A stretch of DNA of 64,000 nucleotides from Bacteroidetes bacterium UKL13-3 (GTDB lineage: Bacteria; Bacteroidota; Bacteroidia; UKL13-3). Shown here one piece after another: positions 6,809 to 16,505 of the stretch. The notes under the pieces were generated by a model. The model made no database searches, was not told where the DNA came from, and worked only from the letters and a program-made list of their open reading frames with translations. The stretch covers positions 2,676,402 to 2,740,401 of the forward strand of contig CP012155.1 in assembly GCA_001602415.1 (NCBI GenBank), read 5' to 3'. Each line of letters begins with the position of its first letter. The stretch's first letter is position 1. The position numbers and the translations under genes are program-made.

Positions 6809-6937
6809 TTTGTGTAATTACTTGGTACCGCAATTAGCGCATTTACGCTCAATTTGGCAAACTTTATCTTTAGCTATTGGTGATTAGCTGTTGGCTAAAT
6901 TACTTTCGAATCTACTTTAATCTATATCGGAGAACGC

Positions 6938-7219
6938 AATCCATCCCACTGTGCCCTTGACCTTTCCACTTCGTTGAGCTCGGGCACCCTTGACTACTCT
7001 GCCATTCTTGCCTTCAACTTAGTTTCCCAATCAATCCAATAACTTAATCAACCAGTCAACTGAATCCATCCCACTGTGCCTTGACCTTTCCTCTTCTTGA
7101 AACTCGGGCACATTTTACTTCTTTGCCATTCATTCTTGCCACCAGCTTAATTAACCCAATAACTTAATCACTTAATCAACTCAATTACTTATTCAACTTA
7201 ATCAACCCAATAACCAACA
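6938..7219. repeat. Two diverged ~125-bp direct repeats, each with a REP-like hairpin, followed by TAATCAAC-type short repeats
   Basis: AATCCATCCCACTGTGCC(C)TTGACCTTTCC starts at 6938 and 7063; each copy has a GTGCC...GGCAC inverted repeat. Confidence 0.85.
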
Positions 7220-7338: not shown

Positions 7339-7950
7339 ATGGACGAATCAAAATTGAAAATACTAACAGGAGCCCAATCACTATTTCTGCGTTATGGCTT
7401 TAAAAGTATTACCATGGATGATATATCTAGAGAGCTAGGCATTTCAAAAAAAACGCTTTACCAATACTTTACAGATAAAAACGACTTGGTTAATCAGGCT
7501 GTAGAAAATCACTTGAGTGAGGAAAAGGCCTTTTGTTTGGAATTGGATGTTACGGAAAAGGATCCGATTGCCTATTTACTGGCTATAAGCAACAAGTTTA
7601 GTAGTGAAGAAAAATACATTAACCCGGCAGTGTTATTTGAGTTAAAAAAATACTTTAAAGAGGCGTGGGATAAGGTTGAACAATACAGGAAGGAATTTAT
7701 ATACGAGCAAGTACTAACCAATCTTCAACAAGGTAAAAGTAAAAGTTTGTATCGCAAAGAGTTAAAAGAAAAAATTATTGCATTGCATTACGTTCACATG
7801 ATTCAGTTTATGGTGAACCCCGAGAATTATTATAAGGAAGAGCGCAACTTTAACGTTGTTCACAGAGAAATGATGAGTTATCACCTTCATGGCATCCTTA
7901 CTGAAAAAGGCCTAAAACAATTAGACAAATTATTAAACCAACCACAATAA
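7339..7950 (+). CDS. TetR/AcrR family transcriptional regulator
   Basis: N-terminal HTH: GFKSITMDDISRELGISKKTLYQYF. Confidence 0.93.
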   Translation: MDESKLKILTGAQSLFLRYGFKSITMDDISRELGISKKTLYQYFTDKNDLVNQAVENHLSEEKAFCLELDVTEKDPIAYLLAISNKFSSEEKYINPAVLFELKKYFKEAWDKVEQYRKEFIYEQVLTNLQQGKSKSLYRKELKEKIIALHYVHMIQFMVNPENYYKEERNFNVVHREMMSYHLHGILTEKGLKQLDKLLNQPQ

Positions 7951-7952
7951 AT

Positions 7953-9317
7953 ATGAAGCGAACCATTTATTTACTCGTTTGCACCTTGCTTAGTGTGCAA
8001 CTCTTTGCACAAGAGAAGCCGATACAAAGTTTTTCGTTAAAACAAGCTGTTGAGTTTGCTAAGAAAAACAACTATGCCCTTAAAAATAATCAGTTAGACG
8101 TATTAGCTGCTCAAAAAAAAGTAAAAGAGATTTTATCAAGTGGATTACCCCAAGTAAGTGCCACTGGTAATTTTATCAATAATACAACCATTGCCACTCA
8201 AGTTTTACCAAACTTTTTAAAGCCAACATTTGTGCAACTTGGTATGCCAGGAGCCAATGAGTTAAGTGATTTTATTCCTGCTCAGTTTGGTCAAAAATTT
8301 TCGGCTACCGGAAGCATCTCTGCATCGCAGCTATTATTTGATGGCGGTTTTTTAATGGGTGTGAAAGCCGCTAAGGAATATGTGGCACTTGCTGAAATAA
8401 ATGTTAACCGAGGAAATATTGAAACGGAAGTTAACGTAAGCAAAGCCTATTACGCAGTGTTGCTACTTCAAACCAATGTCAAACTCCTTACCACCAATTT
8501 AGAAACGTTAACCAAAGCAAAAGGTGATATGGAGAAACTTTACAAAGCAGGATTGGTAGAAAAAACAGATTTTGATAGGATAACTTTACAGCAATCAACA
8601 ATTGACGTAACACGAAGTAAAATAGCAGATCAACAACGTATTGCAAGTATGATTTTGAAACTTCAACTTGGAATGAATGTTAACGATAGCATATTGCTAA
8701 CGGATGATCTACAAAAAATGTTTACATCAGTTCAAACAGTTGCTGTTGAATCCAAAGCAGATTACAATAAACGCACCGAGTATCAATTATTAAACCAATC
8801 AATCAAACTAAATACATTAGATAAAAAACGTTATCAATATGGGTATGCTCCTTCATTGGTTGCCATTGCCGCAACCCAACGAAATACATTCGGATCTAAT
8901 TTTAGTGATTTAGGAAATACATGGTTTCCAGGAACTTATTGGGGCTTAAATTTGAGCATTCCTATTTTTGATGGTTTGCGTAAATCGGCACAAATTCAAC
9001 AATCCAAAATAAACATCACCAAAGCCGAAAATGACAAGAAAACTATGGAGAATGTGATTGAACAACAAGTATTGCAATCCAAACTCACTTTTTTAAGAAC
9101 AGGTGAACAACTCGCCATTCAGGAAAAGAACATGACACTTGCCCAAGATATATATGACAGGGTGCAACTTAAATACAAAAATGGAGTTGGTTCAAGTTTA
9201 GAATTAACAATCTCTCAAAACGATTTGGAAACGGCACGCACCAATTATTTATCAACCGTGTACGACTATTTTGTAGCTCAACTCGAATTACGTAAAGCCA
9301 TGGGTGACATCAAATAA
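7953..9317 (+). CDS. TolC family outer membrane efflux protein
   Basis: Signal peptide, LSIPIFDG repeats, operon context. Confidence 0.92.
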   Translation: MKRTIYLLVCTLLSVQLFAQEKPIQSFSLKQAVEFAKKNNYALKNNQLDVLAAQKKVKEILSSGLPQVSATGNFINNTTIATQVLPNFLKPTFVQLGMPGANELSDFIPAQFGQKFSATGSISASQLLFDGGFLMGVKAAKEYVALAEINVNRGNIETEVNVSKAYYAVLLLQTNVKLLTTNLETLTKAKGDMEKLYKAGLVEKTDFDRITLQQSTIDVTRSKIADQQRIASMILKLQLGMNVNDSILLTDDLQKMFTSVQTVAVESKADYNKRTEYQLLNQSIKLNTLDKKRYQYGYAPSLVAIAATQRNTFGSNFSDLGNTWFPGTYWGLNLSIPIFDGLRKSAQIQQSKINITKAENDKKTMENVIEQQVLQSKLTFLRTGEQLAIQEKNMTLAQDIYDRVQLKYKNGVGSSLELTISQNDLETARTNYLSTVYDYFVAQLELRKAMGDIK

Positions 9318-9353
9318 TTTATAACCACTAAGAAAAAGTAAAAATATACGCAT

Positions 9354-10487
9354 ATGAAAAAAGTAATAGGAATTATGTTATCACTTGCAATAGTAGCCAT
9401 AGCTGCATGCAGTGGAGGAAGTTCAGTGGAAAAGAAAAAAGCTGAACTCGAAAAATTAAAAACACAGCAAACAGAACTAGCTGCGAAGATTGCAACGATT
9501 GAAGATGAGTTAAAGGCAGCAGGCGATTCATTGAGTGAAGAAGATACGCGTTCGAAAGTTGTGGCCATAAGCCCTATAACCAGACAAACTTTCGTTCACG
9601 CGATAGATATTCAAGGAAAAGTTGATGGAGATGAAAATATCACCTACAGCGCTAAAGTTCCAAGCATTGTTACAAAAATAAACGTTAAAAACGGGCAGAA
9701 TATTACAACAGGAACCATTCTTGCCGAGCTTGATACCAAAATAGTAAAAGCTCAAATGGATGTTGTAAAAAAACAATATGAATTGGTTAAAACACTTTAT
9801 GAAAAACGTAAAGAATTATGGGATCAAAAAGTGGGCAGTGAAATTGAATTTTTGCAAGCCAAAAACCAAAAAGAGAGCCTAGAAAAACAACTGGAAAGCA
9901 TTAAAGAAAATTTGGATATGTATTACATCCGTGCCGAGTTTAATGGAACAATTGATGAAGTTGCAATTAAAGTAGGGCAAAATGTTGCCCCTGGAGTTAA
10001 ATGTGTAACTGTTGTAAACCCTGGTAAACTTAAAATAAAAGCGAACCTTTCAGAGTCGTACTCAAGTTTTGTAAAAACAGGTAACCCAACAAAAATATAT
10101 TTCCCAGATATCCCTAAAACCATTTCAGCTAAAGTTAGCTACTCATCAAAAACAATTGATATGTTAACCCGCACATTCAATGTGGAAGTGATGCTTCCTA
10201 ACGATAACGACTTACACCCTAATATGGTTGCCGAACTAAAAATTATTGACTACGAAAAACCAAATAGCATAATTGTTCCAATTAATGCCATACAGCAAAT
10301 TGATGGTACCGATAATGTTTTTATTACCGTAAGCAGAGGCTCACAACGAATTGCTAAGAAAGTGACCGTTAAAGTTGGAAAGCAATATAACGGAGTGGCC
10401 GAAATCCTTGAAGGATTAAACGAAGGTGATGAGTTGATCACAACCGGATTTCAAGATTTAACAGATGGACAATCGTTGAAACTATAA
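9354..10487 (+). CDS. RND efflux periplasmic adaptor (MFP) lipoprotein
   Basis: Lipobox IAAC, coiled coil, TRTF..., GLNEGDELIT. Confidence 0.92.
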   Translation: MKKVIGIMLSLAIVAIAACSGGSSVEKKKAELEKLKTQQTELAAKIATIEDELKAAGDSLSEEDTRSKVVAISPITRQTFVHAIDIQGKVDGDENITYSAKVPSIVTKINVKNGQNITTGTILAELDTKIVKAQMDVVKKQYELVKTLYEKRKELWDQKVGSEIEFLQAKNQKESLEKQLESIKENLDMYYIRAEFNGTIDEVAIKVGQNVAPGVKCVTVVNPGKLKIKANLSESYSSFVKTGNPTKIYFPDIPKTISAKVSYSSKTIDMLTRTFNVEVMLPNDNDLHPNMVAELKIIDYEKPNSIIVPINAIQQIDGTDNVFITVSRGSQRIAKKVTVKVGKQYNGVAEILEGLNEGDELITTGFQDLTDGQSLKL

Positions 10488-10524
10488 CCTCTCACCATTA
10501 TTTAACAGAAAAATATAACTTGTT

Positions 10525-13500
10525 ATGCAAGATTTAAATAAAGAATTTAAACCTTCGAGTTGGAGTATAAATAATAAAACAAGTATTTACATACTTACCA
10601 TTATTATTACACTTGCAGGGCTGTTTTCATACAACAGTTTACCTAAGGAGCAATTTCCTGAAGTTAAGTTTCCCAGCATCCTCATCACTACCATATACCC
10701 AGGAACCTCTCCAAACGATATGGAGCAATTGGTTACCAAAAATTTAGAAAAACAACTTGGTACACTCTCGGGTGTAAAAAAGATAAAGAGCAATTCTGTT
10801 CAGGATTTCTCGGTAATTAATGTTGAATTTAACACCGACCAAAATGTAGATTTATCACTTCAACGTGTTAAAGATGCTGTTGCAAAAGCCAAGAACGATT
10901 TACCTGATAACTTACCCAGAGATCCTCAGGTAACCGACATTGATGCCTCGCAGTTTCCAATTATGCAAGTGCATATCAATGGTGATTTACCGTTGGATAA
11001 AATGAAAAAATTTGCAGACCAATTGCAAGATGAAATTGAAGGATTAAAAGAAATTACCGAAGCGCGCATGTCGGGTGCATTGGAACGTGAAATCCAAGTA
11101 AACGTTGATATGTATAAAGCCGAAGTTGCTTCTATCAGTTTTCAAGACATCAACAGCGCTATTAACTATGAAAACATGACCATTAGCGGTGGACTTGTTG
11201 ACATGGACGGATTAAAACGTTCTATCAGTGTAAAGGGACAATATGCAGACCCTCAAAAACTAGGCGATATTATTATCAGAGGCCCAACAGGAGCAACTAT
11301 TTACCTTAAAGATATTGCCGAAATTAAAGATGATTACAAGGAGAAAGAAAGCTACGCCCGCCTTGAACACAAAAATGTAATCACACTAAACATAATAAAA
11401 AAGAGTGGTGAAAATCTAATTGAAGCCTCTGATAAAATTAAAGCCATTTCAGAACGTTACGAAAAAAGTGTATTCCCTGATGGCTTAAAAATAACCATTA
11501 CAGGTGATCAGTCGGAAAAAACCCGTACCACTTTGCATGATTTGATTAATACCATCATTATTGGATTTGTTTTGGTAACCGTTATTCTCATGTTTTTTAT
11601 GGGAGCAACCAATGCCATCTTTGTGGCAATGTCGGTTCCACTATCATGCGCTATCGCCTTTCTTGTCTTTCCGGCAATCGGATTCAAACTAAACTTTATT
11701 GTTCTTTTCTCTTTCTTGCTTGCATTGGGTATTGTGGTAGATGACGCTATTGTTGTTGCAGAAAACACCCATCGTATTTTTGCCAACGGAAAAGTGCCAA
11801 TCAAAAAAGCTGCTAAAATGGCTGCGGGTGAGGTGTTTTTGCCAGTATTCTCAGGAACGATGACAACCCTCGCTCCTTTTATTCCATTGGCATTCTGGCA
11901 AGGTGTTATTGGTAAATTCATGTTCTTCTTACCTATTACACTTATTGTAACATTGCTTGCTTCCCTTTTAGTTGCTTATATCATCAATCCTGTTTTTGCT
12001 GTTGATTTTATGAAGACCCACGAAGAAGAAGACAAGGTGCGTAACAACAAAAAAGGCTATAAAATTACTGCCGTTATTTTTGCCGTTATCGCTTTGCTAT
12101 CCTATTTAGTAGGCAATATTGGTACAGGTAATTTTGTTGTTGTACTCTTTGGTTTATACTCGCTTAACCGTTTCATTTTGTGGAAATGGATTAAAACTTT
12201 CCAAGAAGTTCGTTGGCCGAAGGTTCAAGATGCCTACAAACGTTTAATGGAATGGACTCTTCAAAAAAGAAGGCCAATTTGGATGATGGTTGCCACTGTG
12301 GCGCTGTTCATCTTCACCTTTATATTCACAGCTATCCGTTCGCCTAAAGTTGTGTTTTTTCCTCAGTCGGATCCAAACTTTATATACACATACATAACGC
12401 TCCCTACCGGAACATCGGCAGCCTACACCGATTCTATTACGCAAATAGTAGAGAACAGAGTGTATAAAGTAATGGGAGATCATAACCCCATTGTTGAATC
12501 CATCATTTCAAACGTAGCGGTGGGAGCAAATGATCCTTCACAATTTGAATATAATTTTAGTCCTACTCCTCACCTTGGGAAAGTAACGGTTGCATTTGTT
12601 GATTTCACCAAACGCAATGGCGAATCCTCTTCACAATACTTAGACAAAATAAGAGAAGCTACTAAAGGTATTCCAGGAGCAGAAATTGTTGTTGACCAAG
12701 AAAAAGGTGGTCCGCCAACCGGTAAACCTATTGCTATCGACATCAAGGGAGATGATATTAACCAATTAGTAAAAGTAAGTGCCGACATTAAACGCTATTT
12801 AGACTCAATTGGAATTGCCGGAGTTGAAGAACTTAAATCAGATGTTCAATCAAACAAACCAGAAATAGTTGTAGAAGTTGACAGAGAAAGGGCCAACCGC
12901 GAGGGAATTAGTACAGGCCAAATTGGTGGCCAGTTGCGTAATGCCATTTTTGGACTGGATCAGCCAAGTAAACTAAAAGATGCGAATGATGAATACCCTA
13001 TTCAAATAAGATACCGAAAAGATCAGCGTAATAACGTGAATGCACTAATGAATTTAAAACTCACTTTCCGTGATATGAATATGGGTGGGCAAATTCGCCA
13101 AGTGCCTTTATCATCTGTTGCAACTGTTCGTTATGGAAATACATTTGGCGGTATCAAACGTTACAACGAAAAGCCCATTATTACATTATCATCTAATGTG
13201 CTTAATGGATTTAACGCAAACGAAATTGTAGGCAAAATTGATAAGAGTTTAAAACGATATCCAATACCTGCGGGTGTAACTGTAAAAATGGGTGGTGAGC
13301 AAGAAGAACAAGCCGAAACTGGAGCTTTTTTAGGAACTGCCTTATTGGTTTCGTTAGGGCTAATATTCTTAATTTTGGTAACACAGTTTAACTCTATTTC
13401 AAAACCAATCATCATTTTAAGCGAGATTTTGCTAAGTTTAATTGGCGTATTCTTAGGGTTTTCACTTTTCAATATGCAAATTTCCATTATCATGACAGGT

Positions 13501-13935
13501 GTTGGAATTATAGCCCTAGCAGGTATTGTGGTACGAAATGGAATTTTACTAGTAGAATTTACCGAGATTTTATTGGGCGAAGGCATGCCATTGCGCGAAG
13601 CAATCATTGAGGCAGGTCGCACACGCATGACACCGGTAATTTTAACAGCAACAGCTACCATGCTTGGATTAATACCACTTGCATTAGGATTAAATATTGA
13701 TTTTGCGTTATTGTTCCAAACAGGTAACCCTCATATTTTCTTTGGAGGAGACAGTGTTGCGTTTTGGGGGCCATTATCCTGGACCATGATTTTTGGGTTA
13801 GGTTTTGCAACTATTTTAACTTTGGTGTTGGTTCCAGTGATGCTTTACCTGAGTGAAAATTTAAAATTACGTATAGGAATTCAACCAAAGCACAAGTTCG
13901 ATCATCCAACGGAAACAAATGCCGAAACACTCTAA
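10525..13935 (+). CDS. RND efflux transporter permease subunit
   Basis: LGIVVDDAIVVAEN, GIVVRNGILLVEF and RMTPVILT motifs. Confidence 0.95.
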   Translation: MQDLNKEFKPSSWSINNKTSIYILTIIITLAGLFSYNSLPKEQFPEVKFPSILITTIYPGTSPNDMEQLVTKNLEKQLGTLSGVKKIKSNSVQDFSVINVEFNTDQNVDLSLQRVKDAVAKAKNDLPDNLPRDPQVTDIDASQFPIMQVHINGDLPLDKMKKFADQLQDEIEGLKEITEARMSGALEREIQVNVDMYKAEVASISFQDINSAINYENMTISGGLVDMDGLKRSISVKGQYADPQKLGDIIIRGPTGATIYLKDIAEIKDDYKEKESYARLEHKNVITLNIIKKSGENLIEASDKIKAISERYEKSVFPDGLKITITGDQSEKTRTTLHDLINTIIIGFVLVTVILMFFMGATNAIFVAMSVPLSCAIAFLVFPAIGFKLNFIVLFSFLLALGIVVDDAIVVAENTHRIFANGKVPIKKAAKMAAGEVFLPVFSGTMTTLAPFIPLAFWQGVIGKFMFFLPITLIVTLLASLLVAYIINPVFAVDFMKTHEEEDKVRNNKKGYKITAVIFAVIALLSYLVGNIGTGNFVVVLFGLYSLNRFILWKWIKTFQEVRWPKVQDAYKRLMEWTLQKRRPIWMMVATVALFIFTFIFTAIRSPKVVFFPQSDPNFIYTYITLPTGTSAAYTDSITQIVENRVYKVMGDHNPIVESIISNVAVGANDPSQFEYNFSPTPHLGKVTVAFVDFTKRNGESSSQYLDKIREATKGIPGAEIVVDQEKGGPPTGKPIAIDIKGDDINQLVKVSADIKRYLDSIGIAGVEELKSDVQSNKPEIVVEVDRERANREGISTGQIGGQLRNAIFGLDQPSKLKDANDEYPIQIRYRKDQRNNVNALMNLKLTFRDMNMGGQIRQVPLSSVATVRYGNTFGGIKRYNEKPIITLSSNVLNGFNANEIVGKIDKSLKRYPIPAGVTVKMGGEQEEQAETGAFLGTALLVSLGLIFLILVTQFNSISKPIIILSEILLSLIGVFLGFSLFNMQISIIMTGVGIIALAGIVVRNGILLVEFTEILLGEGMPLREAIIEAGRTRMTPVILTATATMLGLIPLALGLNIDFALLFQTGNPHIFFGGDSVAFWGPLSWTMIFGLGFATILTLVLVPVMLYLSENLKLRIGIQPKHKFDHPTETNAETL

Positions 13936-14058
13936 AAAAACAAGATGCTTTATCCATGTTAAAACGAGATATAGCATTTTTAACCGTTCTTTAATAAAGC
14001 AGGAAATATTGTGTATTAAGGGGAAAATTAGGTACTAAATATTCATTATTTTAAAAGA

Positions 14059-14072
14059 ATGACAAAAGTCAT
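14059..14072. promoter_or_regulatory. CRP/FNR-like box ATGAC-N4-GTCAT
   Basis: Perfect 5+5 palindrome with a 4-nt spacer, upstream of candidate sRNA copy 1. Confidence 0.45.
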
Positions 14073-14118
14073 ACATTGTATTTTTTGAAACAAGTAGCAG
14101 ATTAATAATTTTACAAGC

Positions 14119-14272
14119 GGAAAGTGAGTTTAAACAATAAACACCACGATTCAACGTTCCTTGTTTAAATCAATCAACATCATTCTTAATATAAGATTTT
14201 GCATCTATTGAGTAGAGGTGCAATTTGTTTCATAGGCTATGATAGACCCTCGAAAGAGGGTTTATCTTTTTT
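14119..14272 (+). ncRNA. Candidate sRNA copy 1 (5' end uncertain)
   Basis: Core 14192-14236 is shared with copy 2; hairpin TTGCATCT/AGGTGCAA; terminator GATAGACCCTC-GAAA-GAGGGTTTATC plus T6; extra 5' stem 14129-14137/14161-14169. Confidence 0.65.
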
Positions 14273-14354
14273 CCTAAAAAACATTATCCTTTATGACAGA
14301 AATATGATAGAAATAATGGTATGCATGCATAATAATAAACGATATTTGTTCCTG

Positions 14355-14456
14355 TAATTATTAGTTATCAGTTTGACTTAAGAGTTTGCATCTATGAGTA
14401 GAGGTGCAATTTGTTTCATAGGTTAGAAAGGCCCCCGAAAGGGGGCTTTTCGTTTT
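14355..14456 (+). ncRNA. Candidate sRNA copy 2 (5' end uncertain)
   Basis: Core 14379-14422; terminator GAAAGGCCCCC-GAAA-GGGGGCTTTTC plus a T run. Confidence 0.65.
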
Positions 14457-14482
14457 ATAGCACAATCCTTTATCCTTGTAGG

Positions 14483-14827
14483 ATGAAAATAATTCTTTAT
14501 CATAATCAAGCATGTTCAAAAAGTTGTGAGGTGCTATCTATTTTGCAACATGTTGGTGAAGATATTACAATCATAAACTACCTAATTACTCCACCCTCCG
14601 TTGAAACTTTAACACAAATTGTAGGCATGCTCGGAATTGAAGCAAAAGATCTTGTTCGTAAAAAGGAACATCTCTACATACAACAATTCCAGGATAAACA
14701 ATACACAAACTCCGAATGGATCAAGGTCTTAAGTAAATATCCTGGGTTAATGGAGCGTCCAATCGTCATTAAAAATGGTAAAGCCATAATCGGTAGACCT
14801 CCACGAACAGTAGAAACTATTTTATAA
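14483..14827 (+). CDS. ArsC/Spx family reductase (glutaredoxin-dependent arsenate reductase-like)
   Basis: YHNQACSKS...LMERPIV...IGRPP; start moved to ATG 14483 because the ORF-track start lies inside the sRNA. Confidence 0.85.
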   Translation: MKIILYHNQACSKSCEVLSILQHVGEDITIINYLITPPSVETLTQIVGMLGIEAKDLVRKKEHLYIQQFQDKQYTNSEWIKVLSKYPGLMERPIVIKNGKAIIGRPPRTVETIL

Positions 14828-14933
14828 GCCAACCGTCAATGTTTTATTCATAACATTTAACCCCATGTATATCCATTTGTGTAAATCACACCTTTACATT
14901 ATTATTGATTGCTATCTTTCACAAAAAAACAAC

Positions 14934-16505
14934 ATGAAGAAAATAATACTTTGCGTCTTTCTATTGACTCAAACATCCCTAATGCTTTGGGCGCAAAAAA
15001 CCGCTCCCGAAAATTGGTACAACCTTGATTTGAAAAAAGATAAGATTCCAGGTGTAAGCACCGAACGTGCATACAACGAATTGCTAAAAGACAAACAGTC
15101 GAACACAGTTATTGTGGCTGTAATTGACGGAGGAACTGAGGTTGACCATGAAGATTTACTACCCGTTATTTGGATTAATAAAGGAGAAATACCAAACAAC
15201 AATATTGACGATGATAAAAACGGTTATTTGGATGATGTGCACGGATGGAATTTTATAGGCGGAAAAAACGGTGATGTAAACGAAGATAACTTGGAACTAA
15301 CTCGCGTATACAAACAACTAACCGAAAAGTATAAAGGTGACGCTCAGAAAACAGGAACCGAGTATGAAGAATACCTTCAAATTAAAACCGACTATGAGAA
15401 ACGCTACAGCCAAGCTCAAAAAATGACGAGCTATTTCACCGACTTGCAAAAAGGTATTGCTGATATTCAAAAAGCAACAGGCAAAAAGAATATTGGGATT
15501 GATGATCTGAAAAGTTACAGCGCAAAAGAAACGTATCAATTAACGTCCGTAAAATTACTAACCATCGCAGCCAAGAAAAAAGTTCCAACAGCCTCAGTTT
15601 TGGCAGAAATATCGGGAGCAAAAGAATATTATGGAAAACAGCTATCCACAGACTTAAACAAAGAGATTAACTCGCGCAATATTATTGGTGATAATTATGC
15701 TGATGTAACAGAGAAGTACTATGGAAATAACCATTACGAAGGTCCAGCAGGTGACCATGGAACCCATGTTGCCGGTATAATTGCTGCTGTAAGAAATAAC
15801 GGTAAAGGTATGAATGGTGTTGCGGATAATGTTAAAATTATGGTTGTACGAGTTGTACCCGATGGAGATGAGCACGACAAAGATATTGCAAACGGTATTC
15901 GTTATGCAGTTGATAACGGAGCTAAAATTATCAATATGAGTTTTGGGAAGAATTATTCGCCATACAAAAGTGCTGTTGATGATGCTGTGAAGTATGCAGT
16001 AAGTAAAGATGTATTACTTGTTCATGCAGCAGGAAACGATGGCAAAAATACAGATACCACTAATAATTTTCCAAGAGATGTATATGCTAGCAATACAGAA
16101 TTAGCCTCATCTTGGATAGAGATTGGAGCTTCCAATTGGAAAAAAGGCAAGCATATTACTGCCGAGTTTTCAAATTATGGAAAGAAGAATGTTGATGTAT
16201 TTGCTCCAGGAGTTGATATTTACTCAACCATCCCCGATTCAAAATATGCAAGCTTTAGTGGCACCAGCATGGCCGCACCGGTAACGTCTGGAGTGGCTGC
16301 TATGTTACGTTCATATTACCCAACACTTACAGCCAATCAAGTGAAAGAAATTTTAATGCAATCATCTGTAAAAGTTAAAGGAAAAGTATTTTTACCAGGT
16401 GCTGATAAACGTAAAGTTAAAATGACCGACTTATGCGCAACAGGGGGTATAATTAATGCATACGAAGCTGTTAAATTGGCCGATCAAATCGTATCCAAGA
16501 AATAA
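14934..16505 (+). CDS. S8 family serine peptidase (secreted)
   Basis: Catalytic triad motifs VAVIDGG, HGTHVAG, GTSMAAP; signal peptide from MKKIIL. Confidence 0.95.
   Translation: MKKIILCVFLLTQTSLMLWAQKTAPENWYNLDLKKDKIPGVSTERAYNELLKDKQSNTVIVAVIDGGTEVDHEDLLPVIWINKGEIPNNNIDDDKNGYLDDVHGWNFIGGKNGDVNEDNLELTRVYKQLTEKYKGDAQKTGTEYEEYLQIKTDYEKRYSQAQKMTSYFTDLQKGIADIQKATGKKNIGIDDLKSYSAKETYQLTSVKLLTIAAKKKVPTASVLAEISGAKEYYGKQLSTDLNKEINSRNIIGDNYADVTEKYYGNNHYEGPAGDHGTHVAGIIAAVRNNGKGMNGVADNVKIMVVRVVPDGDEHDKDIANGIRYAVDNGAKIINMSFGKNYSPYKSAVDDAVKYAVSKDVLLVHAAGNDGKNTDTTNNFPRDVYASNTELASSWIEIGASNWKKGKHITAEFSNYGKKNVDVFAPGVDIYSTIPDSKYASFSGTSMAAPVTSGVAAMLRSYYPTLTANQVKEILMQSSVKVKGKVFLPGADKRKVKMTDLCATGGIINAYEAVKLADQIVSKK

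What the first reader, a model, noticed from the sequence alone, without database searches (positions are those of the whole stretch)
14119..14456. Tandem paralogous structured sRNA candidates with covarying terminators
Seen: two copies 187 bp apart of TAAGA(T/G)TTTGCATCTA(T)TGAGTAGAGGTGCAATTTGTTTCATAGG (14192-14236 and 14379-14422), differing by one substitution and one loop indel. Each forms a UUGCAUCU/AGGUGCAA stem whose G-U pair favours the + strand. An invariant single-stranded UUUGUUUCAUAGG follows, then an 11-bp GAAA-tetraloop terminator. The terminator sequence differs between copies (GATAGACCCTC vs GAAAGGCCCCC) but pairing is fully kept, i.e. compensatory change. The sequence between the cores is unrelated. 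No gene follows copy 1, so a riboswitch or attenuator is less likely. Inference: an array of independently terminated sibling sRNAs, and the best candidate for an undescribed system in this window.
Basis: partly seen in the sequence, partly recalled or inferred. Interest (0 to 1): 0.85.

Follow-up and report, generated by a model that had tools for sequence, protein, structure and literature searches.

The report
Sibling small RNAs behind efflux operon
Two adjacent copies of an uncatalogued small regulatory RNA sit just downstream of an RND efflux-pump operon; the same RNA is conserved across a whole family of mostly uncultured freshwater Bacteroidota, so it is a real new sRNA family, but of a familiar kind.

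Summary
Two + strand copies (cores 14192-14236 and 14379-14422) share a stem-loop, an identical single-stranded UUUGUUUCAUAGG and an 11-bp GAAA-loop terminator. Three terminator pairs differ by compensatory changes.

It is not a chance repeat. A covariance model finds the element in 97 of 119 genomes of the window's family and convincingly nowhere in 146 other genomes of the class. All 8 stem pairs covary, the loop GUAG and the seed stay fixed, and 63 of 66 distinct instances end in a strong hairpin.

In 74 of 80 loci it lies directly downstream of the AcrB-type gene of a TetR-OEP-MFP-AcrB operon, on the same strand. In 22 of 50 distinct loci it starts under 50 nt after the stop codon. Copies at other sites are not next to an AcrB gene.

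Rfam has no family for it; a weak GibS match (36 bits, cut-off 115) recurs in 0 of 16 relatives.

Copy 2 has a Bacteroidota-type -7 box and a 12-bp palindrome. Apart from a site after rplI, that palindrome otherwise occurs only at fatty-acid-degradation genes.

Most likely it is a trans-acting sRNA that pairs with start-codon regions. No conserved target was found, and expression evidence is weak. It is a new member of a known kind.

The parts
7339..13935 (+). RND efflux operon upstream of the sRNAs: TetR-family regulator 7339-7950, outer-membrane efflux protein 7953-9317, membrane-fusion (HlyD-type) protein 9354-10487, AcrB-family transporter 10525-13935
   Evidence: ORFs. Pfam: ACR_tran 611 bits; TetR_N, OEP and HlyD_D23. 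An AcrB homologue lies immediately upstream on the same strand in 74 of 80 related loci.
14192..14272 (+). sRNA copy 1, conserved part: 5' UAAGAU, stem-loop 1 (14199-14223), seed 14224-14236, terminator 14241-14266, U run 14267-14272. The 5' end is unknown.
   Evidence: Sequence; covariance model R1 67.5 bits; terminator; fold -26.5 kcal/mol, z -3.7. There is no -7 box within 140 nt upstream and no terminator between the acrB stop and this copy.
14320..14331 (.). Perfect 12-bp palindrome TATGCATGCATA, 9 bp upstream of the -7 box of copy 2; candidate operator
   Evidence: It occurs 4 times in the genome: here, between the NMO and AMP-binding (acyl-CoA synthetase-like) genes, upstream of marR and the 3-hydroxyacyl-CoA dehydrogenase gene, and after rplI. 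Within the genus it is at the sRNA in 6 of 8 genomes and at the NMO/acyl-CoA-synthetase spacer in 7 of 8.
14341..14348 (+). Candidate Bacteroidota -7 promoter box GATATTTG (7 of 8 matches to TAnnTTTG) for copy 2. It predicts a start near 14351-14356.
   Evidence: Orthologous copies in the genus have exact boxes (TATATTTG, TATCTTTG) at the same distance. The consensus and its centring at -7 are taken from PMC7366714 (passages). A second, weaker box TCAGTTTG at 14368-14375 would start the RNA near 14378-14380.
14351..14458 (+). sRNA copy 2, predicted full transcript of about 103-108 nt: variable 5' part, stem-loop 1 (14386-14409), seed 14410-14422, terminator 14426-14451, U-rich tail to 14458
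   Evidence: R1 68.4 bits; terminator; fold of 14354-14458 -35.1 kcal/mol, z -4.9. The 5' end is inferred from the promoter box only.
14486..14827 (+). Downstream ArsC-family gene. It is not part of the RNA; it is the neighbour in 39 of 80 loci.
   Evidence: Pfam ArsC 46.5 bits; synteny count.

Best explanation
The two elements are sibling genes of one conserved small regulatory RNA of about 80-110 nt.

Architecture. Each RNA has four parts: a variable 5' part; a stem-loop whose stem sequence is free to change but whose loop keeps GUAG(A); a 13-15 nt unpaired segment, (AA)UUUGUUUCAUAGG, that is invariant across the clade; and an intrinsic terminator.

Mechanism (inferred). The unpaired segment is a seed that pairs with the start-codon region of mRNAs reading ...CCUAUGAAAC.... 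It contains CAU, the complement of AUG, followed by the complement of a Lys codon. Pairing would block translation initiation, which in Bacteroidota does not depend on a Shine-Dalgarno sequence. This is how the Bacteroides sRNAs GibS and FopS work.

Link to the efflux operon. The gene is tied to the 3' end of an RND efflux operon, so at least the first copy is probably made together with the pump, by read-through or from the 3' UTR. Copy 2 has its own promoter. That promoter carries an operator-like palindrome shared with fatty-acid-degradation genes, so this copy is probably also switched by a fatty-acid or acyl-CoA-responsive regulator, most plausibly the MarR-family protein encoded beside those genes.

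Shown: sequence anatomy, conservation, covariation, terminators, synteny and the shared palindrome.
Inferred: transcription start sites, trans-acting base pairing, the regulator and the physiological role.
Not found: any conserved target.
For: Conservation:
- R1 finds the element in 97 of 119 genomes of the family (66 of 80 high-quality genomes, 13 of 17 genera), with 1-6 copies each.
- Outside the family, 7 of 146 genomes gave only weak hits (21-28 bits), all without a terminator and lying in what looks like coding sequence.

Structure:
- On a MAFFT alignment of 60 instances, 97.2% of cells pair and 18 cells carry double changes against 2.8 in shuffles.
- On the model-fitted alignment of 120 matches (61 distinct), all 8 pairs carry double changes, with 44 such cells against 9.4, reached by 0 of 500 shuffles. 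Slid controls pair in at most 68.5% of cells.
- Divergent members have entirely different stems with the same loop and seed.
- 63 of 66 distinct instances have a hairpin of -13.6 kcal/mol or better right after the seed.

Strand: the U-G pair occurs in 37 of 60 instances, the T runs are on the + strand, and the + strand folds better.

Independent-gene character:
- An exact TAnnTTTG lies within 140 nt upstream in 38 of 73 instances, at lineage-specific distances (my count from its listing).
- In 10 of 12 fetched further contexts the core was located, and in none was an AcrB-like ORF found within 2.6 kb. Divergent copies seen have a -7-like box directly upstream of the core.

Synteny: AcrB is upstream on the same strand in 74 of 80 loci. 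The gap from stop codon to stem-loop is under 50 nt in 22 of 50 distinct loci.

Regulation: palindrome counts; gene identities.

Context: one RRM_1 protein and no Hfq in the genome, as in Bacteroides, where an RRM protein binds such sRNAs (PMC11697453, passages).

RNA-library contigs at 99% identity or more cover 13784-14431 and 14150-14317.
Against: - No target could be established. Duplex energies of the seed against 2,827 crude start regions are no better than for shuffled seeds: 57 at -14 kcal/mol or lower, against 46 +/- 24.
- The seed's complement is not over-represented in five genomes relative to a reversed control.
- The two best-looking targets of this genome lose the complementarity in sister species. 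These are a PorV-like outer-membrane protein and a TonB-dependent receptor.
- The only recurrent hit, coaD, is explained at least as well by phylogeny as by the sRNA.
- Expression is not shown. The RNA-library contigs are of low depth (3-7), cannot give strand or ends, and could be DNA carry-over.
- Copy 1 has no recognisable promoter.
- Where the element abuts the acrB stop codon, the upstream TAnnTTTG lies in coding sequence and may be coincidental.
- An invariant 15-mer across 13 genera without a conserved complementary site is somewhat unexpected for a pure base-pairing seed. It leaves room for a protein-binding role.
Confidence: 0.6

Rival explanations
1. It is a cis-acting 3'-UTR module of the RND efflux operon. 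In this reading the stem-loop, conserved tract and terminator act only on the operon's own transcript, for example as a stability or processing element or a protein-binding site that sets pump mRNA half-life. They would not act as a diffusible regulator.
For: The element follows acrB on the same strand in 74 of 80 loci. It starts 5-45 nt after the stop codon in 22 of 50 distinct loci, and only 11 of 50 have another terminator-like hairpin in between. In the window nothing terminates the operon before copy 1. RNA-library contigs run from inside acrB into the element.
Against: Further copies lie at sites without an AcrB-like ORF within 2.6 kb, and divergent copies have a -7-like box directly upstream. 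Copy 2 of the window sits behind copy 1's terminator with a promoter of its own. Tandem arrays of 2-6 copies make little sense for a 3'-end stabiliser. No strong pairing to the operon's own start regions was found (-7.5 to -12.0 kcal/mol). Genera that lack the element keep the pump orthologue.
Confidence: 0.15
2. It is a protein-binding or sponge RNA. The invariant loop (GGGGUAGA or UGAGUAGA) and the invariant tract would be recognition sites for an RNA-binding protein such as the genome's RRM protein. The RNA would then act by titrating that protein rather than by pairing with mRNAs.
For: Invariance of both loop and tract across 13 genera with no conserved complementary mRNA site. There is one RRM_1 protein and no Hfq. 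Multi-copy arrays would suit titration.
Against: The tract carries a perfect anti-start-codon motif shared with the 5' end of the Rfam GibS consensus (UUUCAUAG). GibS's conserved 5' portion is documented to pair with start-codon regions (PMC7366714, passages). No protein-binding evidence of any kind was obtained here.
Confidence: 0.12
3. It is a distant homologue, and so a member, of the Bacteroides GibS/FopS sRNA family rather than a separate family.
For: The permissive Rfam scan gives GibS (RF04182) over 14346-14458 at 36.4 bits, E 0.0025. The consensus shares AAGAG-UUG...UGA.AG with stem-loop 1 and UUUCAUAG with the seed. FopS and GibS are multi-copy and target start codons.
Against: The score is far below the gathering score of 115. 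GibS does not appear at E <= 1 in 0 of 16 loci of divergent relatives. In GibS and FopS the seed lies in a single-stranded 5' stretch, whereas here it lies between a stem-loop and the terminator. The model found no convincing match in 146 other genomes sampled from the class.
Confidence: 0.08
4. It is a leader or attenuator for the downstream ArsC-family gene, or a small protein gene on the - strand (ATG AAA CAA ATT...).
For: ArsC follows in 39 of 80 loci. The reverse complement of the seed starts with ATG and is open for 13 codons in the window.
Against: ArsC is absent downstream in 41 of 80 loci, and copy 1 is followed by no gene. No alternative (anti-terminator) pairing is evident. The - strand ORF varies from 8 to 50 codons with no conserved end in 58 distinct instances. 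Stem covariation changes its residues, the U-G pairs are C-A on that strand, and the T runs are on the + strand.
Confidence: 0.03

Closest known systems
GibS sRNA of Bacteroides thetaiotaomicron (Rfam RF04182; PMC7366714, read as passages only)
   Same: It is an intergenic sRNA of Bacteroidota with an intrinsic terminator. It has a conserved unpaired seed that pairs across the start codons of target mRNAs in a phylum without Shine-Dalgarno sequences. The Rfam consensus printed begins GUGUUUUUCAUAG, which shares UUUCAUAG with this seed.
   Different: The GibS seed is at the single-stranded 5' end (positions 1-38) and is followed by two metastable hairpins. Here a covarying stem-loop precedes the seed. 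The Rfam score is 36 against 115 required, and the match does not recur in relatives. The order of bacteria and the genomic context (3' end of an RND operon) also differ.
FopS, the 14-member family of paralogous sRNAs of B. thetaiotaomicron (PMC11697453, abstract and passages)
   Same: Multiple paralogous copies per genome. It represses translation by binding near start codons of outer-membrane transporter (SusC-like) mRNAs and interacts with an RRM protein. One RRM_1 gene is present here.
   Different: FopS is a single-stranded 5' stretch plus a terminator, with no stem-loop. Its copies are dispersed and associated with polysaccharide utilisation loci, not placed in tandem behind an efflux operon. 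No Rfam match other than the weak GibS one was seen. I could not check whether FopS is in the Rfam copy used.
3'-UTR-derived sRNAs of Proteobacteria (CpxQ, MicL, OppZ/CarZ; recalled, not read here)
   Same: The sRNA shares the terminator of an upstream protein-coding operon and is made with it, either from an internal promoter or by processing. This couples a trans-acting regulator to the expression of that operon.
   Different: Those act with Hfq, which is absent here. In this family many copies also have promoters of their own or lie at other sites. Processing has not been shown.
Tandem sibling sRNAs such as OmrA/OmrB (preprint 10.64898/2026.06.26.734639, seen in a search listing only) and PrrF1/2, AbcR1/2 (recalled)
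   Same: Adjacent duplicated sRNA genes with identical seeds, divergent flanks and separate terminators, possibly under different promoters.
   Different: They are unrelated in sequence, taxon and chaperone.

Membership tests
Rfam GibS (RF04182) | Score at or above the curated gathering score (115 bits) | tested here: not met
   0 matches at gathering thresholds in the whole window. The best permissive score is 36.4 bits for copy 2 only.
Rfam GibS (RF04182) | The match recurs in homologues of the element | tested here: not met
   GibS is listed at E <= 1 in 0 of 16 loci holding divergent family members.
GibS / FopS | The seed lies in a single-stranded 5' stretch of the RNA | tested here: not met
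   The seed lies 3' of a covarying 8-bp stem-loop and directly before the terminator. The GibS and FopS architecture is taken from passages.
Trans-encoded base-pairing sRNA (generic class) | Intrinsic terminator at the 3' end | tested here: met
   for both window copies; 63 of 66 distinct instances.
Trans-encoded base-pairing sRNA (generic class) | Conserved, unpaired seed segment | tested here: met
   The columns of UUGUUUCAUAGG are invariant in 60 and in 35 sequences. The segment is unpaired in the short-form folds. In the 105-nt fold of copy 2 part of it pairs weakly with the 5' extension.
Trans-encoded base-pairing sRNA (generic class) | Own promoter | tested here: inconclusive
   Copy 2 has a 7-of-8 -7 box, and its orthologues have exact boxes. 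Copy 1 has none. An exact box occurs in 38 of 73 instances, some of them inside acrB coding sequence.
Trans-encoded base-pairing sRNA (generic class) | Discrete transcript detected | tested here: inconclusive
   Only assembled contigs of freshwater RNA libraries, at depth 3-7 and without strand or end information.
Trans-encoded base-pairing sRNA (generic class) | Identifiable complementary target sites | tested here: not met
   No enrichment and no conserved site was found.
3'-UTR-derived sRNA | Lies downstream of a coding gene on the same strand and supplies its terminator | tested here: met
   74 of 80 loci. The gap is under 50 nt in 22 of 50 loci. In the window the gap is 262 nt with no intervening terminator.
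3'-UTR-derived sRNA | Released by processing or an internal promoter | not testable with these tools
   This needs 5'-end mapping (dRNA-seq with and without TEX).
Sibling (paralogous tandem) sRNAs | Two or more adjacent copies with the same seed and separate terminators | tested here: met
   There are two or more matches in 6 of the 7 other genus members and up to 6 per genome in other genera.

The most novel reading that the evidence does not exclude
The RNA is the output arm of a pump-linked stress circuit in uncultured freshwater Bacteroidota. It would be made from the 3' end of an RND efflux operon and, through a second copy, from a promoter under a fatty-acid or acyl-CoA-responsive MarR-type operator. 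It would use an anti-start-codon seed (UUUCAUAGG) to shut down translation of a set of envelope or lipid-metabolism mRNAs whenever the pump is induced. The same core seed in GibS and FopS of Bacteroides would then reflect a phylum-wide solution for sRNA targeting in the absence of Shine-Dalgarno sequences: pairing to AUG plus the Lys codon typical of exported proteins. That solution would have arisen independently in different RNA scaffolds.
Probability: 0.25. Interest if true: 0.6.

Novelty: new member of a known kind. Interest (0 to 1): 0.45.

Why it matters
Very few sRNAs are characterised in Bacteroidota, and to my knowledge none in the uncultured freshwater lineages that make up this family. 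My literature searches listed no description of this family, and those searches were narrow.

This one has unusually clean comparative support:
- 8 of 8 stem pairs covary.
- The seed is invariant.
- It has a fixed genomic address behind an efflux operon.

That makes it a ready entry for Rfam and a good handle for three questions:
1. How do sRNAs find targets in a phylum without Shine-Dalgarno sequences?
2. Are efflux operons in Bacteroidota coupled to post-transcriptional control of other genes?
3. What does the shared TATGCATGCATA operator sense?

It does not change any general concept of RNA regulation.

Tried and rejected
**Rfam.** There were no hits at gathering thresholds. The weak GibS hit was rejected as membership because it recurs in 0 of 16 relatives.

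**Distribution.** The 'order' search returned the same 119 genomes as 'family' and added nothing. The weak class-level hits were rejected after reading them. A viral-contig scan for the loop-plus-seed pattern found 0 stretches.

**Alternative top of stem 1.** A CUA/UAG top with a GNRG-like loop gave 93.8% of cells paired, against 97.2% for the simple 8-bp stem. Neither is excluded.

**RNAalifold.** On the MAFFT alignment it recovered only stem 1, because the terminators are misaligned. Terminators were therefore checked one by one.

**Targets.**
- Seed-versus-start-region duplex energies showed no excess over 40 shuffled seeds.
- In-register matches gave a list of candidates: a NusG-like gene, DUF1573, TonB-dependent receptors, cdsA, DUF2147 and DUF4442. 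None has support beyond this one genome.
- The PorV-like protein was rejected and the TonB-dependent receptor was rejected.
- Matches to the seed complement with at most 2 mismatches in five genomes equal the reversed control.
- Of the 75 fetched sites that retain the ATG, 44 open ORFs shorter than 60 codons. Only coaD recurred, in 2 of 5 genomes, and it was also among the five best duplex energies in this genome.
- coaD start regions pair better in sRNA-bearing genomes (mean -16.6 kcal/mol, n = 28) than in others (-11.7, n = 22; Mann-Whitney p = 1.4e-4, not corrected for relatedness). However, two genomes of an sRNA-less genus pair as well or better (-18.0, -26.1), and 12 of 28 sRNA-bearing genomes pair at -14.2 or weaker. 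coaD stays an unproven candidate.
- There was no strong pairing to the operon's own genes or to arsC.

**RNA-library contigs.** The parts of 13700-15000 without contig cover (14448-14931, including arsC) are not evidence of anything.

**Minus-strand peptide.** Rejected.

**Taxonomy.** It was not resolved beyond class level. The depositors' labels on the 50 named records are Bacteroidetes/Bacteroidota/Bacteroidia in 38, Chitinophaga in 7 and other names in 5.

**Tools and sources not available.** Supplements and figures of the GibS and FopS papers could not be seen. The exact R1 and R2 seed letters are therefore not confirmed from the papers; the comparison rests on the Rfam consensus printed.
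Full report
**1. What is in the sequence**

The intergenic stretch 13936-14485 lies between the stop codon of a 1136-aa AcrB-family gene (10525-13935; Pfam ACR_tran 611 bits) and a 113-aa ArsC-family gene (14486-14827). It holds two + strand copies of one element.

Each copy has these parts:
- UAAGA(U/G) at the 5' edge of the conserved part.
- An 8-bp stem, UUGCAUCU/AGGUGCAA, with an 8- or 9-nt loop.
- The identical tract UUUGUUUCAUAGG.
- Three or four bases of linker.
- An 11-bp stem with a GAAA loop, followed by a T run.

The terminator scan finds both hairpins: 4 terminator-like sites in 13800-14900 against 0.4 +/- 0.8 in shuffles. The two terminator stems differ at three pairs, and all three pairs are kept. 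The shared 20-mer is expected 0.01 times in the window and occurs twice. The core occurs only twice in the 3.24-Mb genome.

**2. It is a conserved family**

- BLASTN with 14100-14470 hit 18 of 24 genomes of the same family and nothing credible beyond it.
- A degenerate loop-plus-seed pattern found 50 stretches in the species-level genome collection. The depositors label 38 of them Bacteroidetes/Bacteroidota/Bacteroidia, 7 Chitinophaga and 5 other names.
- From 35 distinct cores I built covariance model R1, with 47 positions and 8 pairs.
- In the own genome R1 scores the two copies at 68.4 and 67.5 bits. The next hits are at 18 bits.
- In the family, which is also the whole order in this collection, R1 matches 97 of 119 genomes. 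That is 66 of 80 high-quality genomes and 13 of 17 genera, with 1-6 matches per genome.
- In an even sample of the class, 7 of 146 genomes outside the family gave hits of 21-28 bits. I read all seven. None is followed by a hairpin and T run, and they look like coding sequence.
- No copy was found in viral contigs.

**3. Structure**

On a plain MAFFT alignment of 60 instances, the 8-bp stem pairs in 97.2% of cells. It has 18 cells with changes on both sides, against 2.8 in column shuffles. The count of pairs with such changes (3) is not itself beyond shuffles (104 of 500).

Divergent members fetched afterwards settle the matter. Their stems are entirely different (for example UAUGGG/CCCAUA, UUAGUGU/GCACUAA, AUGCAAU/AUUGCAU and CUUGGAAGG/CCUUUCAAG), while the loop (GGGGUAGA or UGAGUAGA) and UGUUUCAUAGG are kept.

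On the model-fitted alignment of 120 matches (61 distinct):
- All 8 pairs carry double changes.
- There are 44 such cells against 9.4 in shuffles.
- There are 25 further pair types against 12.5.
- 0 of 500 shuffles reach these values.
- Slid registers pair in at most 68.5% of cells.

That alignment leans towards the model's structure, but the raw sequences show the same thing.

Other structural points:
- 63 of 66 distinct instances have a hairpin of -13.6 kcal/mol or better directly after the seed. The exceptions are an 89-nt-period array and one doubtful hit.
- The + strand is indicated by the U-G pair (37 of 60), by the T runs and by the folding energies.
- The - strand ORF that begins at the seed's complement is 8-50 codons long with no conserved end.

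**4. Context**

The window's upstream genes form a TetR - outer-membrane efflux protein - membrane-fusion protein - AcrB operon.

- In 74 of 80 related loci (not de-duplicated) the nearest upstream ORF on the same strand is an AcrB homologue. An ArsC-family gene follows in 39 of 80.
- Among 53 distinct loci, 50 have a long ORF ending upstream. The gap to the stem-loop has a median of 108 nt and is under 50 nt in 22 of them.
- Only 11 of the 50 have another terminator-like hairpin in the gap.
- In the window the gap is 262 nt with no terminator. The operon's transcript should therefore run into copy 1 and end at its terminator.

The element is thus the operon's 3' end. It is not only that, however:
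- In 10 of 12 fetched further contexts the core was located, and no AcrB-like ORF was found within 2.6 kb of it. Divergent copies of this kind have a -7-like box directly upstream of the core.
- The pump orthologue is present in 117 of 119 genomes, including the genera that lack the RNA.

**5. Promoters and a shared operator**

The Bacteroidota promoter consensus is TAnnTTTG centred at -7 (PMC7366714, passages). It occurs exactly within 140 nt upstream in 38 of 73 instances. The distances are lineage-specific: about 30, 42, 62 and 90 nt, or directly adjacent. Where the RNA abuts acrB, the box lies in coding sequence, so that count is an upper bound on true promoters.

Copy 2 of the window has GATATTTG at 14341-14348, and its orthologues have exact boxes at the same distance. 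Copy 1 has none.

Nine bases upstream of that box lies the perfect palindrome TATGCATGCATA (14320-14331). It occurs only 4 times in the genome. The other sites are:
- The spacer between divergent nitronate-monooxygenase-family and AMP-binding (acyl-CoA-synthetase-like) genes.
- Upstream of a MarR-family gene followed by a 3-hydroxyacyl-CoA dehydrogenase gene and a thiolase-like gene. The thiolase was judged by eye only.
- One site after rplI.

Across the 8 genomes of the genus the exact palindrome is at the sRNA in 6 and at the NMO/acyl-CoA-synthetase spacer in 7. A reversed control occurs 0 times. I infer a common regulator, most simply the MarR-family protein, and hence co-regulation of this sRNA copy with fatty-acid degradation. 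This is inference from shared sites, limited to one genus.

**6. Expression**

Four freshwater RNA libraries hold parts of the locus at 99% identity or more. One contig spans 13784-14431, from inside acrB through copy 1 into copy 2's terminator. Another spans 14150-14317. These are assembled contigs of depth 3-7. They give no strand or ends and could contain DNA. They are compatible with transcription through the region, including read-through of terminator 1, but prove nothing more.

**7. Mechanism and targets**

The invariant tract is the complement of CCUAUGAAACAAA: a start codon, a Lys codon and their surroundings. Bacteroidota lack Shine-Dalgarno-based initiation, and the two studied Bacteroides sRNA types act at start codons. 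The genome has one RRM_1 protein and no Hfq. The most economical mechanism is therefore translational repression by pairing across start codons.

I could not find the targets. Energies are not better than for shuffled seeds, complements are not enriched, and the best single-genome candidates are not conserved. coaD is ambiguous. This keeps the mechanistic confidence near 0.6, although the reality of the RNA family is near 0.9.

**8. Comparison with known families**

Rfam 15 has nothing at gathering thresholds. The permissive scan gives GibS at 36.4 bits for copy 2. The alignment is intriguing, because it shares AAGAG-UUG before a hairpin and UUUCAUAG is present in both. However:
- It is far below the 115-bit cut-off.
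- It recurs in 0 of 16 divergent relatives.
- The architecture differs. The seed is internal and follows a stem-loop here, whereas it sits at a single-stranded 5' end in GibS and FopS.

The element works like GibS and FopS but is not a member of those families. In its genomic logic it resembles 3'-UTR-derived and sibling sRNAs of Proteobacteria (recalled). My literature searches listed no description of this family. They were few and word-based, and supplements were closed.

**9. Verdict**

This is a real, well-supported and uncatalogued sRNA family: a new member of a known kind. It has an interesting fixed address behind an RND efflux operon and a plausible link to fatty-acid sensing. Interest is 0.45.

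Noticed in passing
window 6933-7180: There are two tandem copies of a roughly 125-nt unit (74-91% alike over its pieces). Short AT-rich sub-repeats (CAACTTAATCAACCCAATAAC-like) follow up to about 7214. They lie in the 530-nt spacer upstream of the TetR gene that opens the efflux operon.
   Followed up: partly
G000:C1 938762, 940597, 1374113 (outside the window) and window 14320-14331: The 12-bp palindrome TATGCATGCATA marks a small candidate regulon: NMO-family/acyl-CoA synthetase-like genes, marR with 3-hydroxyacyl-CoA dehydrogenase and a thiolase-like gene, and the sRNA. A fourth site lies just after the rplI terminator, next to an IS-like ORF.
   Followed up: partly
L111 / L314 (G052:C234 about 2437-2830): A head-to-tail array of four to five divergent units with an 89-nt period keeps the GGGGUAGA loop and UGUUUCAUAGG. 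It lacks strong terminators between units (-1.9 and -4.4 kcal/mol). It is on a different contig from that genome's acrB-linked copies.
   Followed up: partly
L112 / L313 (G110:C18 8415-8456): This is the only match in a genus that otherwise lacks the RNA (35 bits). It has a fully compensated stem and the GGGUAGA loop, but a changed tract (UUUGUUUCCUUU) and no terminator. It lies among ORFs that look phage-like (for example a family-A DNA-polymerase-like fragment, judged by eye).
   Followed up: no
window 14354-14458: In the 105-nt fold of copy 2 the conserved 5' UGACUUA pairs with UAGGUUA at the 3' edge of the seed, which could partly mask the seed in the long form. The MFE frequency is only 0.045. 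Covariation was not checked.
   Followed up: no
G000:C1 about 906039 (outside the window): An open reading frame of about 7,900 codons starts here. It was seen only in the crude ORF listing.
   Followed up: no
G000:C1 62967, 411059, 905018, 2806649 (outside the window): Four near-identical copies of a sequence containing TATGCAAGCATA, in the same 80-nt context, indicate a repeated, probably mobile, element.
   Followed up: no
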